In this document: in pieces, positions 1 through 6,000 of the stretch
How positions within the stretch are numbered: the stretch's first letter is position 1
Layout of the letters: the number at the start of each line of letters is the position of its first letter
Source of the DNA: Pecten maximus
Lineage: Eukaryota
Assembly (NCBI RefSeq): GCF_902652985.1
Contig: NC_047032.1
Location: forward strand, 18,662,001 to 18,726,000
DNA length: 64,000 bases
Direction: 5' to 3'
Position numbers: made by a program

Positions 1-3000
1 GAGTCATATCATCTGCGGATTTATATTATATGCCTGTCTACATACACATAAATAGCAGGATGAGTTTATCTTTTATTGTAGATTATTGAATGTCGTACCT
101 GCTATCCATTTCCCTCGGGGACAACTGCGTAGTATTATCGCCGCGAAATTAATCAACAGTAACAACGTGAGATTGAAAATTTTGATAAACAATTCATGGA
201 AAACATATCTTTAAAGCATTTCAGAATATGATAATGGTTTTCTGAATATTTAGTTTAAGGGAATATATCATGAAGTTACAACAATCACATTAAATATCAT
301 ATAGAATTTTTTATACTAGATAAAAAAAAGGATGTTTAAGTTGTATGCTAGTCACATGTAAAAAAAACATTACAAGCTGACTCTCCTTGGATATTGGCAC
401 TTGTAAAAATACTAGTTCAATTACGGAGTTATTTTAACAGTGGTCCAGAACATGCTGTGTCAAAGTAACATTTCCAGAACGCCCAGCGCTCAGCCAAAGT
501 GACGGCCTTACGCATACAAGTCCGCTTTGGCTTAGAAGGTGGGGTCGGTGGTTCATACAGGGGATTCTTTGCCATAACCTTTCCTTGCTTGTAGTTAGGC
601 TTATATCGGCGGTAACATTCGAAGCCTGCAAAATAGGCAAACACAAATTTTGATTTACGCATATTCTCAACCTGTACAGGAAAAAAAGGAGCAATTACCT
701 TTTAATGTGGAATATACAACGACTTGTTTTGTTTAAAGCGAATGTAACTTTGGTTTCCATACTCATTGGAAGATGATTAATTCTTTTAAATAGGGAAATG
801 GGTTTAAGATAAAGCAATGCACCAGCTTTTATCGTAAAACATGTTCTGTAAATACATATTTTGTTCAAAACACGTTTTATATCGATCGATATTTGTAAAC
901 CATGCTACTGGAAATAGGCCGAATGAAGTCGGGTGCGAGTAATGAGTCTATGCAGTATTCTGCTTACGAACGGTAAAATTGCATTCTTGTAGGATCTACC
1001 GAATTGAAATACTATTCTTTTGCACTGATTTCTGTATTTAATATTAACTAGGAATGCGGACAATTGAAATATCGAAATTAAGGGAAAGTCTAGGTTTTTT
1101 AAACAATATTTTAATATATTTCGCCAGATAATAGTTTCCAACTGACTTCTTTTACAGTTATAACCGCTTTAAATCATTCGAATTAATAGTCTATTCCAAC
1201 TCCCTATTCACTTTTCTTTTATCTGTTTTTTTTATCGGGTTTTGTTTTTTGTTCGCTTCTAATCATCACCACTCTAGGTCATTGTACTACCGAAAAGTCA
1301 AAGAATGACAAAACATTCGCAGGATGCAGTATAATTAACTTTGGCTCAAATATAACCATCAATTTGGTTTGAAAGGTGCTATTATCTTGTGTTTCTTTTG
1401 CACACCATTTGCCCATACACTTTAGAAAAGAGCATATTTCTCCAATGTCTTCTGTTAAGGATCTGCTCTTGTGAAAAGTCGAAATTTTCTGATGACAAAC
1501 TTTTAAAATGTTATACCTCATTTCCAAGGGGAGAATACCGAGATATAAAAAAGAATCGCTGTTACAATGTGTTATCGGACATGGAATGTTTTTAGAATTG
1601 ATAAACCGTCTATATTCTTTTTTAGATTAGAAGCTAGATTGACCAAATCAATTATCTCTAATCAGAACAGCAAATTATGTAACCCATTCCCCTAAATTTT
1701 GAAGTATAAAATACCCAATTTTCACCATTTTTCCTACATTTAACGCTTCATATAAAAAGTTCTGCTGACTAGCATTTTAAGATATTCTGCAGATCGGGGG
1801 GTCGGTGTGCTTTAATTTTTGTACCGAACTGATATTTACTTTTCAGCTTTTTGGGTATAAATTTTAAAGTGCTGAAGTTAAAATAAAAGAGAAAATGAAA
1901 TGCCAAAAGGCTATTTGTTGTGGATTATTTTCCATGTATTAAATATTGTACATTTTTAAAGTAAAGATTAATTAGAAATATTCATAACTGCCATAGCAAT
2001 TATGTTTTAAGTAAAAACAGTCCAAAAATATGAAACCTGAGCCATAAACAAAATGCAAGAAAAAATTCGTTTAAAAGCAAATAAATCTGCTAACTTCAGA
2101 AGTCTGTTTTTTTTCATATATATATTACAAATGCATTTTATGCAAGATCGAAACGAGACTTCAACGTGACTGAAACCTCAGAAGAGCAGATCCTTAAGCA
2201 TAAACATTAGAGAGCCTAAGATTAAAGAAAGCTAATATCGTTGCGCAGTTGAAGGGACATTTCAGATACCGGGATAGATCTAGGGCACAAAATAAAAGTG
2301 ATTCCTTTTTTTCTTAAAATCGGAATGTCTATAGCAACAACGTTAAACTCCGTAAAAGTAAGTACAATTAAACATGTAGGTCATTTAACATATTACCGAG
2401 TCCGAATGAAAACATGAAATAATGATCATCTCGCAGGTATTCGTGCCTTTTTAAGACTTTGAGATTCGTCCTTATCCTATATGCTAGATTTACATTCTGA
2501 GGTATACACAAACATGTTTTTAATCTCTTCAAAGTCCAATACAGATTTAAAGTTTATGTATTCACAACTGTGACTCCTCTTCTATATCTGAACAATTCAT
2601 TAGGACCTTTCCATTTTGTATGACTCCCTTTCTAGATTGTCATTCTTTGATCCGAAGCATCATTGACGAGTTATAGAAGAATATAGCTATATGAAACGGT
2701 TCATCCGTCGCTTATCAGGTATTGCTTAAAGGTGAGATAAATAGAGGTTACACAACGGGTGGTTGTTGGATATGGAATTTATTTTACACGAGTAAGTTAT
2801 TTTTTAAAAGTTACAAAAGACACGAGCTTTAGCGAGTGTTTGTTTGGCAACCTTTTAAAAAATAACTTACGAGTGTGAAAATAAGTTCCATATCCAACAA
2901 TTTCGAGTCGTGTGGACCTGTTTTCGACCACAATAATATCGGCTTGAATCAAAGGAAAACGTTGCCAAGTATAATTTCGCGTATGCAAATAAAGTGTACC

Positions 3001-6000
3001 GGTGAACGGCCGGGACCTGGTGATGTGACATCATTAGATTATTGATGACGTCAATAACAATTGCAGCTTGGTCAAAGTCACCGTGTTAGCCAATCAAATG
3101 CGTACAGAGGTATTAGCCAACATGGTGGTATAAACAGATTGTTAATCAACAGCTGTAACGATTAACTGATGGTCTGAGAGTTGAATAACAAATGGTATTG
3201 TGGTAGAAATATAGTTTTATAAAGACCCGGTAGAATCAAATATCAACCGAAGGTGAAGCCTGATATCAATAGTTTACATTACATATACCAGGTCGGTATA
3301 AAACTGTAATATCGAATCAAGGGTTCTTATTTTTTTATGTTAGGTAGTGTATGAAACTTATTTACAAAAGGATGTAAATGCATAAAATGTATCTTGTTAA
3401 CAGGAGAAATTTGATTGGGGCACTGCGACGTTACATCTTACAATTATAATGACGTCATCAACGCCATATAGACCCTGCGTTCCTCAATATAGAAACGTCA
3501 GATTAATAAAGTGTCTCAAAATACTGTCCTACACGTGACCACGTTTTAGCCAATGAGAATGAAGGAAATATCTATTACTTACAGTGAAAGATCATTCACT
3601 TGTATGTCCTTTGGCGTAATTCTCAATTACTTATCAGATAATGTAGAAATTAACATCAAATTACCTGTCTTGCACGCACAGAGATCATCACAAGTCTCCC
3701 CCAGTCCAGGTTGTTTCATCTGGCAAGTACCGGAAGCTGAAGTAAAAGGAAAAGGTACTTTTCTAACTGAGAGATAAATTGTTTAAGTTCATTCTCAAGC
3801 TATAAGTTTGAAAAATATTTGGTTTATAAGAAGACTGTGTTTATTTTTAAGAGTATGTAGCTTGTAATTTAAGAGGATTTTGTTTTTCTTTACTCATGTT
3901 CTTTTTCCACCAGGCTTAATATTTGTCTTTGGCTAATACCCGAACAAAAAAACTCGAATATCGAAATGATGTATTTACCCCTCTGTAAAGATTAATGAAA
4001 CACAGAGCATGTTATTGGTATTAATTTTATACATGGCACAATAGGTTTAATGACATGAACATTAAAACTGCATGAAAATAAAGAAGTAAACATATATTGT
4101 CTTGGCGTCGGTGGTATTATGTATGTGACGTAGCCGTCAAGTTAAAGAGGACAGTTAGGGAAAACATCTCCGCTGATACCGTCAAACAGGCTCTAACACT
4201 TCAAGGGGATTTCAGTCAATTAATAATGTTGTTTGATCAAAACCAAATTAACTTATTTTAATTATAATTGTTAATGACTGACATTTGGAACCCAATGTTA
4301 CTAATTATAAGATAGAGGCCAGTGAGGGGTCAGTGTGCATTTGCGCAGTAATATACAGCGCATCCTTTGTCCTTTTCCATCCCCGATTTATCGTGAAACA
4401 AAGGGAAGTAACTCTGATAGATCAGAAAACCAGCGACCAAACTTGATATAGACAAATTATATTGTATGTTTGAATTGCATTGAATTATTTAGATTATTTC
4501 TATGAACCTTAAGGGTTACAATTCAATAAGAACACTAACAAGGGAAAAAACTATACACTAGACGTGGTAAATAGTGTACATTGTACACGACGATTTGACA
4601 ATATTTCAATAAAAACCTGATCTATACTTATATACACACTTTACAACACACACATTTAACAATGTTTAATCATGCATGGATTGTTAAAGTATAATACTTT
4701 GCAGATGATAATTAATAGAGAAATGATACATAATTTATCAATTAATAGTTGTATAGCTTTGACAATGTATAAGGAACAATATGATGTGTATAATAGAAAA
4801 TAGCTTATTTGCTTGTCCTTAATATTTTGAAGATTTTGTAAATATATATGAATACCTATACTGAAATTAAATATCATTTGTGTGAAATATAATTTAGCGT
4901 GGTGCCGTTCAGTTTAACAACATTGCTGATTTTCGACCTACCGAGTCCATTTTTGAGCGCGTTTGGTCCGTAAGTATCAGTATCCAACATGGTTCCTGAT
5001 TGGTCAAAACAACACCCAGCGCTGCATTCCGCTGTATGGTGACATTTAAGGCCTATACCATCAATTGTCGTTTTGGGTGGAGGAGGGAGCCTAGTTGGCG
5101 CAGGCGTCGAGGGCGTAAGTCTTGAAGTTGGGTTTAGCGATGTAGGCATGTAGAAGGGATCAGTCGGAGGGGGGAAGGTAGGGGCGTACGGGGATGGTGC
5201 CGTGGGTGGAAACATTGGTGGATTGGTAGGCGCGGTTGGTGGCATAGTTGGCGGTATAGTTGGTGGTGTAGGCCCTTGACCTTGATTGTTGAACAGAGCA
5301 GGACCCGGGAAGGGAAACCGTGGCTGTCCCGGAAAAGGAGCTTGGGGCTCAAATGGTTGCTGGTGGAAGGGTTGCTGGGTTGTCCTTTCATGTATGGGCC
5401 TCTGACGTGGCTTTCCAGGTTGCCTGCCCCGTTTCCTTTTCATCCAGTTTGAGTTTTTGCCTTGCCTGTTGATTCGTCGGTTGCCGCCTTGCCGCCTGGG
5501 GTTTGGATTGTTCCTCCAGTTTCTGTTCTGTTTCGGAGGTTTTTGAAACAATGGTATTTTGTTTGCCAACAATTGAGGCGGAGGGTTGTTCATTATCTTG
5601 TTGTTTACGCTGACTTTGATGAGTGGTTTATTTTTTTCCACAGACTTTCTTTTCCCTCCCCCTCCTCCTCCGATCCCTCCTCCCTGAGCCCTTCGAATAT
5701 GTTGTGATGGTGGTAGTGGGGGTTTCATATTGATCAAACTGTCAGCCATTGGATGCGAATTTTGATTTGGCCTTTGTGGTTGTACCGATGGTTCAAACTT
5801 GTAGGATGGCGACGGGTTTGCGTTACCGAAATTAAACCCAGAAGGGACAAAACTCTGGATACCCGCGACAGATGGAGCTTGTGTAGTTATTGCCTCTTTC
5901 TGAAATTGAAAAGGTTGAGCAAACTGTCGTAATTCAGGGCGGTATGTTGGAAAACCATTCGTCCTCGTATTCTTGTGGGGTTGTATAGAGTTCTGCTCCA

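What the first reader, a model, noticed from the sequence alone, without database searches (positions are those of the whole stretch)
429..5050. Colipase/prokineticin-fold domain hidden across three exons of a basic, disordered secreted protein
Seen: splicing gives C-x5-C-x3-CC-x26-C-x10-C-x3-C-x-C-x5-C-(long P/K loop)-C plus a tail with two more Cys (WAFWKCYFDTAC). Known: C-x5-C-x3-CC...CxC-x5-C...C is the 10-Cys pattern of colipase, AVIT/prokineticin and Dickkopf CRD2. Those are usually small proteins or have acidic linkers. Here the domain has two long loop insertions and sits behind about 430 aa of almost acid-free N/R/Q/P-rich sequence and a P/T mucin-like linker. Inference: a lineage-specific extracellular structural protein (shell matrix, periostracum or byssus), or a processed signalling precursor.
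Basis: partly seen in the sequence, partly recalled or inferred. Interest (0 to 1): 0.68.

Follow-up and report, generated by a model that had tools for sequence, protein, structure and literature searches.

The report
Scallop secreted protein, colipase-like head
This is a real scallop gene for a secreted protein: a long, basic, floppy chain ending in a small, conserved knot of twelve cysteines that most resembles the binding domains of colipase, Dickkopf and Draxin, and it belongs to an unnamed family so far seen only in a few bivalves.

Summary
On the minus strand, five GT-AG exons (41574-41509, 8516-8226, 6082-4942, 3736-3665, 625-429) encode a 588-aa protein. A search with one exon alone returned an identical public Pecten maximus model, misnamed "SETD1A-like". 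The layout is: signal peptide, 433 aa with pI 12 and only 10 acidic residues, a P/T stalk, then a 12-Cys domain split over three exons. Cys spacing 5,3,0,26,10,3,1,5,(28-34),15,5 is the same in six complete relatives. The domain is 82-91% identical among scallops, the rest 53-65%. Only 8 of 1.84 billion representative proteins match, and no Pfam family reaches its cut-off.

The colipase-fold reading has convergent but sub-threshold support. Language-model neighbours are colipase, Dickkopf and prokineticin (0.75-0.78). The better AlphaFold model's top four Foldseek hits are colipase, Dkk1 CRD2, Draxin and MIT1 (E 0.19-0.8). Draxin is the top PDB sequence hit in all four searches (E 0.15-0.22). 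A poorer second model ranks IGFBP N-domains first.

Architecture matches Draxin best. Shell, byssus or signalling roles remain untested. Verdict: a new, divergent variant of a known fold class, of moderate interest.

The parts
41509..41574 (-). Coding exon 1: start codon and 22-residue signal peptide, followed by a GTAAGT donor
   Evidence: sequence; tblastn, P0005 residues 1-22, 100%; hydrophobic N-terminus kept in P0006, P0007 and P0015
8226..8516 (-). Coding exon 2 (97 codons, phase 0-0): first part of the basic N/R/Q/S/F-rich disordered region
   Evidence: no Pfam hit
5285..6082 (-). Coding exon 3, first part: the rest of the basic disordered region (P0005 residues 120-385)
   Evidence: the Atlas model of the whole protein has mean pLDDT 0.44 and pTM 0.25
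5066..5284 (-). Coding exon 3, middle: P/T-rich mucin-like stalk (residues 386-458; P 28 and T 15 of 73)
4942..5065 (-). Coding exon 3, end: start of the Cys domain, with Cys1-4 (C-x5-C-x3-CC) and most of the 26-residue spacer with the invariant L-D-x-x-T-x-G core; donor GT at 4941-4940, phase 1
3665..3736 (-). Coding exon 4 (72 nt, phase 1-1): Cys5-8 (C-x10-C-x3-C-x-C); this is the stretch that aligns to Draxin
   Evidence: Draxin alignments
429..625 (-). Coding exon 5 with stop (431-429): Cys9, a 32-residue P/K-rich loop, Cys10, a predicted amphipathic helix with Cys11, then Cys12 and an invariant C-S near the end
   Evidence: helix at model residues 109-124 with block pLDDT 84 and 79

Best explanation
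The locus is a five-exon Pecten maximus gene for a secreted, two-part extracellular protein. After the signal peptide come about 360 residues of strongly basic, almost acid-free, disordered N/Q/P/R/F-rich chain, then a P/T-rich (probably O-glycosylated) stalk. The protein ends in a folded head of about 125 residues stapled by 12 cysteines. The head is the selected part. It most likely adopts the colipase-type fold (two disulfide-stapled beta-hairpin subdomains, as in colipase, prokineticin/MIT1, Dickkopf CRD2 and the Draxin C-terminal domain). It carries three family-specific additions: a fixed 26-residue spacer with an invariant L-D-x-x-T-x-G core, a variable P/K loop, and a C-terminal helix with two extra Cys. 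Proposed mechanism (inferred): the basic disordered arm holds the protein on polyanionic extracellular material, and the head binds one specific partner, as its known relatives do. The protein defines an unnamed family with very few detectable members, all named ones bivalves. Shown: gene structure, secretion signal, composition, conservation, and family rarity. Inferred: fold class, glycosylation, tethering, partner binding.
For: Gene model: GT-AG introns and matching phases. The large exon alone retrieves an identical 588-aa NCBI model plus orthologues in Argopecten irradians and Mizuhopecten yessoensis (3 hits among 4619 candidates). A relative, P0015 (553 aa), sits on a 1676-base contig, too short to hold introns, so its domain is read as one continuous frame.
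Selection: the domain is 118/130 and 107/130 identical among scallops, against 296/454 and 244/463 for the rest. Cys spacing is identical in 6 of 6 complete members, and 25 columns are invariant.
Rarity: 8 hits at E<=0.001 among 1,835,955,588 representatives; 7 among 5906 candidates, one of them from Pinctada imbricata.
Fold: Atlas feature neighbours are colipase 0.78, Dickkopf 0.77, prokineticin 0.76, with 9 of the 10 best family-bearing hits in one clan. The replicate with P0015 gave 0.77/0.77/0.75 and 10 of 10. The AF2 model has pLDDT 69.7 and pTM 0.55. Its Foldseek ranks 1-4 are colipase 1lpb_A, Dkk1 CRD2 3s2k_C, Draxin 5z5k_B and MIT1 1imt, with 1pcn, 1eth_B and 3s8v_X also in the first 14 rows. 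Draxin is the best PDB sequence hit in 4 of 4 searches, E 0.15-0.22. Weak Pfam hits are Colipase (E 0.019), Draxin (0.026) and Prokineticin (2.5).
Disorder: Atlas whole-protein models have mean pLDDT 0.44.
Basic arm: pI 12.0, K+R 61, D+E 10 in 433 aa.
Against: No fold line reaches significance. One search had 0 of 73 Foldseek matches at E<=0.001, the best TM by target was 0.45, and all Atlas scores are below 0.9.
Pfam found nothing for the exon peptides or the full proteins at E<=10. On domain parts, each weak family hit came from only 1 of 8 members and lay below its cut-off; a DUF6896 hit (E 0.18) also appeared.
The second AF2 model (P0008 first; pLDDT 59.8) ranks four IGFBP N-domain chains first (E 0.068-0.26), with colipase at rank 5, Dkk2 at 6 and Draxin at 9. 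Atlas structure rows for P0015 also include IGFBP4 and HTRA1.
The Draxin alignment covers only about 32 residues and is largely Cys-driven. Disulfide pairing could not be read, because no coordinates are given.
Nothing measured bears on tethering, glycosylation, partner or tissue. Outside scallops, the N-terminal arm is similar only in composition: the shuffle test found 1, 15, 35, 18 and 14 of 200 shuffles reaching the observed score.
Confidence: 0.55

Rival explanations
1. Structural biomaterial protein. The protein would be a bulk or framework component of shell matrix, periostracum, ligament or byssus. The low-complexity arm would be the working material (for example coacervation through Arg and aromatic residues), and the Cys head a cross-linking or anchoring end-piece. 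This is compatible with a colipase-type fold.
For: Signal peptide, a long low-complexity region and a P/T stalk. The arm changes composition freely between lineages (basic N/R/Q/P in scallops, Q/N/P/G in P0015, G/P/A in the Pinctada protein P0008) while the head stays constant, as in many mollusc matrix proteins. The named members are all byssate, shell-forming pteriomorph bivalves.
Against: No proteomic or expression evidence was found. No paper holds sequence motifs of the family or links colipase, bivalve and shell matrix. The scallop byssus and shell papers were seen only in a search listing, and their supplements are closed. The gene is single-copy in this window. Within scallops the arm keeps many short invariant patches, which suggests specific contacts rather than bulk material.
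Confidence: 0.3
2. The head is not a colipase-fold domain. It would be an IGFBP-N-terminal-like domain or an independent disulfide-rich fold, and the Cys spacing would resemble colipase by convergence.
For: The second model's top four Foldseek hits are IGFBP N-domains, with probability up to 0.92. IGFBP4 and HTRA1 appear among Atlas structure rows. The domain has 12 Cys, and no match anywhere is significant.
Against: Pfam IGFBP did not appear at E<=10 in any of 8 members, whereas Colipase, Draxin and Prokineticin did. The sequence shows (A/V/I/Y)-G-C-C, not the G-C-G-C-C motif of IGFBPs (motif recalled from memory). The better model (pLDDT 69.7 against 59.8) ranks colipase-fold chains first. 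In the second model, residues 1-21 and 32-47 are below pLDDT 50. A passage of PMC6078440 states that colipase-fold CRDs, IGFBP-4N and ICK domains are structural neighbours, so mixed hits are expected.
Confidence: 0.2
3. Processed precursor or cytokine. The basic arm would be cut at dibasic sites into peptides, and/or the head released as an astakine/prokineticin-like factor.
For: Several RR, KR and KRKR sites lie in the arm. Oysters have astakine/prokineticin-type 10-Cys cytokines that lack AVITGA (PMC8398477 passages).
Against: There is no dibasic site next to the head, which is preceded by the P/T stalk. A candidate amidation site (F-F-G-R-R) is not kept in Mizuhopecten. The dibasic-rich arm is absent from P0015, P0009 and P0008. 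No AVITGA-type N-terminus is present.
Confidence: 0.08
4. Gene-model artefact: the three Cys-bearing pieces are not part of one transcript.
For: No RNA-seq was available here. Some database relatives (P0012, P0014) are truncated at the first domain intron.
Against: Canonical splice sites and matching phases. The same continuous domain occurs in six relatives, including a 553-aa protein on a 1676-base contig. The truncated or fragmentary models break exactly where the scallop introns lie, as expected of read-through or partial predictions.
Confidence: 0.02

Closest known systems
Draxin (neucrin), C-terminal cysteine-rich domain; PDB 5z5k_B, Pfam PF15550
   Same: Best PDB sequence hit in 4 of 4 searches (E 0.15-0.22) and a weak Pfam hit (E 0.026, 14.9 bits). 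In the printed alignments the spacing from Cys5 to Cys9 is identical (10,3,1,5), and G-L, D, G and C-Y are shared. Foldseek rank 3 and rank 9. Same architecture: a secreted, mostly disordered protein with one disulfide-rich C-terminal domain (PMC10084454 and PMC8655782 passages).
   Different: The score is below the Pfam cut-off of 27 bits, and only about 32 residues align. The Cys4-Cys5 gap is 6 in the Draxin chain as printed against 26 here. This family has a C9-C10 loop of about 30 residues, a C-terminal helix and two extra Cys. No similarity was found in the disordered arms. Those papers report Draxin only from vertebrates.
Dickkopf CRD2 (Dkk1 3s2k_C, 3s8v_X; Dkk2 2jtk)
   Same: Foldseek rank 2 and ranks 6, 16, 22. 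Atlas feature score 0.75-0.77. A 10-Cys colipase-type domain at the C-terminus of a secreted protein. Molluscs do have Dkk1/2/4 (PMC6425005 passages).
   Different: No CRD1: there is no Cys at all between the signal peptide and the head. No Pfam Dickkopf match. Different loop lengths.
Colipase (1lpb_A, 1eth_B, 1pcn; Pfam PF01114/PF02740)
   Same: Top Foldseek hit of the better model (E 0.19, TM by target 0.45). Top or second Atlas feature neighbour. One of 8 members hits PF01114 at E 0.019.
   Different: Colipase is a small stand-alone cofactor of about 90-110 residues. Here the domain ends a 588-aa protein and has extra loops, a helix and 12 Cys. All scores are sub-threshold.
Prokineticin / MIT1 / astakine (1imt; Pfam PF06607)
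   Same: Foldseek rank 4. Atlas 0.76-0.77. Ten-Cys pattern. Bivalve astakine/prokineticin-like proteins exist (PMC8398477 passages).
   Different: Those are small proteins in which the domain directly follows the signal peptide (with AVITGA in vertebrates). Here it follows 433 residues. Pfam E is only 2.5, in 1 of 8 members.
IGFBP N-terminal domain (2dsp_B, 2dsq_A)
   Same: Top Foldseek hits of the poorer model and rank 5 of the better one. Also has 12 Cys (recalled from memory). Described as a structural neighbour of colipase-fold CRDs (PMC6078440 passage).
   Different: No Pfam IGFBP hit at E<=10. The Cys spacing is unlike it, and there is no G-C-G-C-C motif.

Membership tests
Colipase-fold group (colipase, prokineticin/MIT1, Dkk CRD2, Draxin CRD) | Ten Cys in the order C-x5-C-x3/4-CC ... 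C ... C ... C-x-C-x5-C ... C | tested here: met
   Gaps are 5,3,0,26,10,3,1,5,(28-34) in 6 of 6 complete members. The general pattern is recalled from memory. The Draxin spacing is read from the alignments.
Colipase-fold group | Significant profile match to a member family (Pfam Colipase, Colipase_C, Prokineticin, DIKK C-subdomains, Draxin) | tested here: not met
   0 families for the exon peptides and full proteins at E<=10. On domain parts only sub-cut-off hits: Colipase 0.019, Draxin 0.026, Prokineticin 2.5, each in 1 of 8 members.
Colipase-fold group | Predicted fold superposes on solved members (Foldseek E<0.001 or TM>=0.5) | tested here: inconclusive
   Model 1: ranks 1-4 are colipase, Dkk1, Draxin and MIT1, but E is 0.19-0.8 and TM by target 0.38-0.45. 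Model 2: IGFBP-N ranks first, colipase is at rank 5.
Colipase-fold group | Disulfide pairing C1-C4, C2-C5, C3-C7, C6-C9, C8-C10 (recalled from memory) | not testable with these tools
   Structure prediction returns no coordinates.
Draxin | Pfam PF15550 at or above the gathering score (27 bits) | tested here: not met
   14.9 bits, profile positions 267-299 of 324 only, 1 of 8 members. No hit with the full-length proteins.
Draxin | Secreted, mostly disordered protein with a single C-terminal Dkk-like Cys domain | tested here: met
   The definition is taken from PMC10084454 passages.
Draxin | Netrin-binding motif in the arm; head binds DCC Ig4 / LRP6 | not testable with these tools
   No Draxin sequence was available to compare arms, and no binding assay could be run.
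Dickkopf | Two Cys-rich domains, CRD1 (Dickkopf_N) followed by CRD2 | tested here: not met
   There is no Cys between the signal peptide and residue 466. No Dickkopf_N hit. The definition comes from PMC6078440 and PMC6425005 passages.
Prokineticin/AVIT | Small protein with the domain directly after the signal peptide; AVITGA N-terminus in vertebrates | tested here: not met
   The domain starts near residue 459 of 588. The AVITGA requirement comes from PMC8398477 passages.
IGFBP N-terminal domain | Pfam PF00219 match and G-C-G-C-C motif (motif recalled from memory) | tested here: not met
   No PF00219 hit at E<=10 in 8 members. The sequence has x-G-C-C only.
Mollusc shell-matrix / byssal proteins | Found in a shell or byssus proteome, or transcript enriched in mantle or foot | not testable with these tools
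   No expression data were available and supplements are closed. Text searches found nothing on this protein.

The most novel reading that the evidence does not exclude
This bivalve family is an invertebrate counterpart of Draxin. It would be a secreted, basic, largely disordered guidance/Wnt-modulating ligand whose C-terminal Dkk-like head (identical Cys5-Cys9 spacing, best sequence hit in every PDB search) binds a DCC/neogenin- or LRP5/6-type receptor. Draxin-type proteins would then predate vertebrates, contrary to the statement that they occur only there (PMC8655782 and PMC10084454 passages).
Probability: 0.1. Interest if true: 0.75.

Novelty: new variant of a known kind. Interest (0 to 1): 0.4.

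Why it matters
If the fold call is right, this is a previously unrecognised, highly divergent branch of the colipase / Dickkopf / Draxin / prokineticin domain group. It carries its own fixed insertions and a sixth disulfide, and it is attached to fast-evolving disordered arms. Public records give it misleading low-complexity names ("SETD1A-like", "extensin-like") and no domain. It offers a compact, conserved handle (the head) for asking what long low-complexity secreted proteins of bivalves do. It also gives a concrete candidate for testing whether the Draxin-type design (disordered tether plus Dkk-like head) exists outside vertebrates. If the protein turns out to be a shell or byssus component, it would add a new end-domain type to mollusc biomaterial proteins.

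Tried and rejected
Pfam on each exon peptide and on the three full-length scallop proteins gave no family at E<=10.

A word-indexed search for short proteins carrying only the head found 2 candidates, and neither scored. So no stand-alone small form was found there.

Literature searches by record name gave either irrelevant papers or none. 'extensin-like' plus yessoensis returned 3 papers; I read passages of two, and both concern other proteins. 'SETD1A-like' plus Pecten maximus returned 0 papers. 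Four sequence motifs returned 0 papers. Colipase plus bivalve plus shell matrix returned 0 papers.

No second copy of the head was found in the window. The P-rich tblastn hits at 57.8-58.3 kb, 61.0-61.6 kb and 34.7 kb are simple-repeat DNA next to N runs.

P0013 (1288 aa, 8 stretches matching only the P/K loop) was set aside as a low-complexity match. I neither fetched nor used it.

I thought I saw a conserved motif in the arm of P0014. BLASTP did not recover it, and a Smith-Waterman shuffle test was borderline (1 of 200 shuffles reached the score). I make no claim from it.

Full report
**What is in the sequence.** The feature lies on the minus strand. Stop-to-stop frames and the reverse-complement sequence show three coding pieces.
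- The 3' end of a long open frame (6082-4942) ends in C-x5-C-x3-CC plus a spacer, followed by a G|GTAGGT donor.
- A 72-nt piece (3736-3665) lies between a ...TTCAG acceptor and a G|GTAATT donor and holds C-x10-C-x3-C-x-C.
- A last piece (625-429) follows a ...TTGCAG acceptor. It holds one Cys, a P/K-rich loop, another Cys, and a tail with two more Cys before the stop codon.

Both domain introns are phase 1, so the frames fit. Upstream there is a phase 0-0 exon at 8516-8226. The first coding exon at 41574-41509 holds the start codon, 22 hydrophobic residues and a GTAAGT donor. The introns measure about 33.0, 2.1, 1.2 and 3.0 kb.

**How the spliced reading was checked.** Pfam on the four exon peptides found nothing at E<=10. 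A protein search with the large exon alone found 3 proteins among 4619 candidates:
- P0005, an NCBI Pecten maximus protein of 588 aa, 100% identical, named "histone-lysine N-methyltransferase SETD1A-like".
- P0006, Argopecten irradians, 586 aa, uncharacterized.
- P0007, Mizuhopecten yessoensis, 593 aa, "extensin-like".

The joined reading comes from the public record P0005, whose residues tblastn places on the five exons at 95-100% identity. The profile search, both folds and the PDB and Pfam domain searches used the corresponding parts of orthologues and relatives.

A relative, P0015 (553 aa), lies on a contig of only 1676 bases. In that record the whole protein, head included, is therefore one uninterrupted frame. 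This is what a spliced transcript looks like (inference).

Two truncated database models (P0012, P0014) lose similarity exactly where the scallop's first domain intron lies. Two fragments (P0010, P0011) begin where the second one lies. This suggests that the intron positions are shared (inference).

**Composition and conservation.** Figures for P0005 are unless stated.

| Region | Residues | Features |
|---|---|---|
| Signal peptide | 1-22 | hydrophobic |
| Basic arm plus stalk | 23-455 | pI 12.0; K+R 61; D+E 10; no Cys; P, N, Q and R most common |
| P/T stalk | 386-458 | 28 P and 15 T of 73 |
| Cys head | 459-588 | 12 Cys |

- The ESM Atlas's own models of the whole proteins have mean pLDDT 0.44, in line with a mostly disordered chain.
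- Among the three scallops the head is 91% and 82% identical to P0005. The rest is 65% and 53% identical.
- Cys gaps are 5,3,0,26,10,3,1,5,x,15,5 with x = 28-34 in all six complete members: P0005-P0009 and P0015.
- The 26-residue spacer is therefore a fixed element. L, D, T and G inside it are invariant in all 6 rows that cover it.
- F-W-x-C-Y-x-D-x-x-C-S in the tail is also invariant.
- Outside scallops, the arms are related only by composition.

**How rare it is.** A profile of two orthologue heads was scored against 1,835,955,588 representative proteins. It found 8 at E<=0.001, 4 at E<=1e-10 and 2 at E<=1e-30. One of the 8 (P0013) matches only the P/K loop, and I set it aside. A second search with an 8-row profile among longer proteins found 7 of 5906 candidates. 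The only further named record is a hypothetical protein of Pinctada imbricata. No small stand-alone form was found. All named members are pteriomorph bivalves; the unnamed ones I did not trace.

**What the head is.** Four kinds of evidence point to the same fold group, and none is significant on its own.
1. *Cys pattern.* It fits the ten-Cys pattern of colipase-type domains (general pattern recalled from memory).
2. *ESM Atlas features.*
   - For P0005 residues 455-588: colipase 0.78, Dickkopf 0.77, a mollusc cluster 0.76, prokineticin 0.76, with 9 of the 10 best family-bearing hits in one clan.
   - For P0015's head: 0.77, 0.77, 0.77 and 0.75, with 10 of 10 in one clan.
   - The tool rates scores under 0.9 as leads only.
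3. *AlphaFold2 and Foldseek against the PDB.*
   - Model 1 used an 8-row alignment with the A. irradians head first: pLDDT 69.7, pTM 0.55, four short strands plus two helices.
   - Foldseek gave 73 matches at E<=10 and none at E<=0.001.
   - Ranks 1-4 were colipase 1lpb_A (E 0.19, TM by target 0.45), Dkk1 CRD2 3s2k_C, Draxin 5z5k_B and MIT1 1imt.
   - Procolipase 1pcn, colipase 1eth_B and Dkk1 3s8v_X were also in the first 14 rows.
4. *Sequence searches.*
   - Three profile searches and one single-sequence search of the PDB each put Draxin 5z5k_B first, at E 0.15, 0.22, 0.22 and 0.19.
   - The aligned stretch runs from Cys5 to just past Cys9, with identical spacing 10,3,1,5.
   - The only other rows were 4xgu_A (E 1.3) and two Ephrin-B1 chains (E 0.62 and 0.63).
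   - Pfam on the 8 domain parts gave Colipase E 0.019, Draxin E 0.026 (14.9 bits against a cut-off of 27), DUF6896 E 0.18 and Prokineticin E 2.5, each in 1 of 8 members.

**Evidence against the fold call.** A second model, with the Pinctada head first, was poorer: pLDDT 59.8, with residues 1-21 and 32-47 below 50. Its Foldseek list starts with four IGFBP N-domain chains (E 0.068-0.26). Colipase follows at rank 5, Dkk2 at 6, Draxin at 9 and MIT1 at 33. None of its 52 matches reaches E<=0.001.

A passage of PMC6078440 says that colipase-fold CRDs, IGFBP-4N and ICK knottins are structural neighbours. A mixed neighbourhood is therefore expected, but the fold call stays probable rather than shown. 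Disulfide pairing could not be read because the tool gives no coordinates.

**Comparison with known families.**
- *Not Dickkopf.* There is no CRD1 and no Cys before the head (the definition comes from passages).
- *Not a prokineticin/astakine-type small cytokine.* The head follows 433 residues with no adjacent dibasic site and no AVITGA-type N-terminus.
- *Not colipase.* The size and context differ, and the scores are sub-threshold.
- *Closest to Draxin, by sequence and by design.*
  - Passages of PMC10084454 and PMC8655782 describe Draxin as secreted and mostly disordered, with one C-terminal Dkk-like ten-Cys domain of about 65 residues.
  - That domain binds DCC; Draxin also binds LRP6 and, through a short motif in the arm, netrin.
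  - Draxin is reported only from vertebrates.
  - The scallop protein shares the design and the Cys5-Cys9 spacing.
  - It fails the Pfam threshold, has a 20-residue longer Cys4-Cys5 spacer, a long C9-C10 loop, an extra helix and a sixth Cys pair.
  - I therefore do not file it as a Draxin.

**Most likely mechanism (inferred).** The protein is a secreted two-part molecule. The basic disordered arm and glycosylated stalk hold it on polyanionic extracellular material. The conserved head binds one specific partner, as every characterised relative of this fold does.

Whether that happens in a biomaterial (shell, periostracum, byssus) or in cell signalling is open. The fast-changing low-complexity arms and the byssate, shelled hosts favour the first. 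Three things favour the second: the single-copy gene, the strongly conserved head, and the short invariant patches in the scallop arms. No expression or proteome data could be consulted. Supplements are closed, and text searches found nothing on this protein.

**Verdict.** The fold interpretation is probable but sub-threshold, and the functional guess is untested. The family is unnamed and misannotated, and is best rated a new variant of a known kind. Interest is moderate. It would be high only if the Draxin-like reading proved to reflect common descent or shared receptors.

Noticed in passing
window 8517-41508 (intron 1 of the gene, minus strand): The first intron is about 33 kb and separates the signal-peptide exon from the rest. 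It contains repeat-derived open frames, for example a 196-codon frame of near-identical 15-16-residue units at 35706-36296. No convincing nested gene was seen, but the intron was not searched systematically.
   Followed up: partly
window 6650-7100 (intron 2): Tandem repeats of period 27/53 and 102 bases, 3.6 copies of the longest.
   Followed up: no
window 46697-50496, minus strand: A run of long open frames upstream of the gene looks like a decayed retroelement. The frame at 48321-48662 matches Pfam RVT_1 (E 9.9e-12). Three neighbouring frames had no Pfam hit.
   Followed up: partly
window 57691-61674, plus strand: A 388-codon frame at 58597-59763 carries a reverse-transcriptase zinc-binding domain (zf-RVT, E 4.4e-10). 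It is flanked by two N runs (58282-58465 and 60835-61007) and by P/T/H-rich simple-repeat frames. Those frames gave spurious tblastn hits to the proline-rich stalk.
   Followed up: partly
window 62328-62897 and 63615-63977, minus strand: Two exon-like frames match Pfam DLH, the dienelactone hydrolase family (E 4.1e-24 and 1e-08). They belong to a neighbouring gene on the same strand, upstream of the finding's gene.
   Followed up: partly
public records P0005 and P0007: The public names 'histone-lysine N-methyltransferase SETD1A-like' and 'extensin-like' have no support from any domain. They look like low-complexity naming artefacts.
   Followed up: yes
relatives P0010, P0011, P0012, P0014: Fragmentary or truncated database models break exactly at the positions of the scallop's two domain introns. 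This suggests that the intron positions are conserved across the family.
   Followed up: partly
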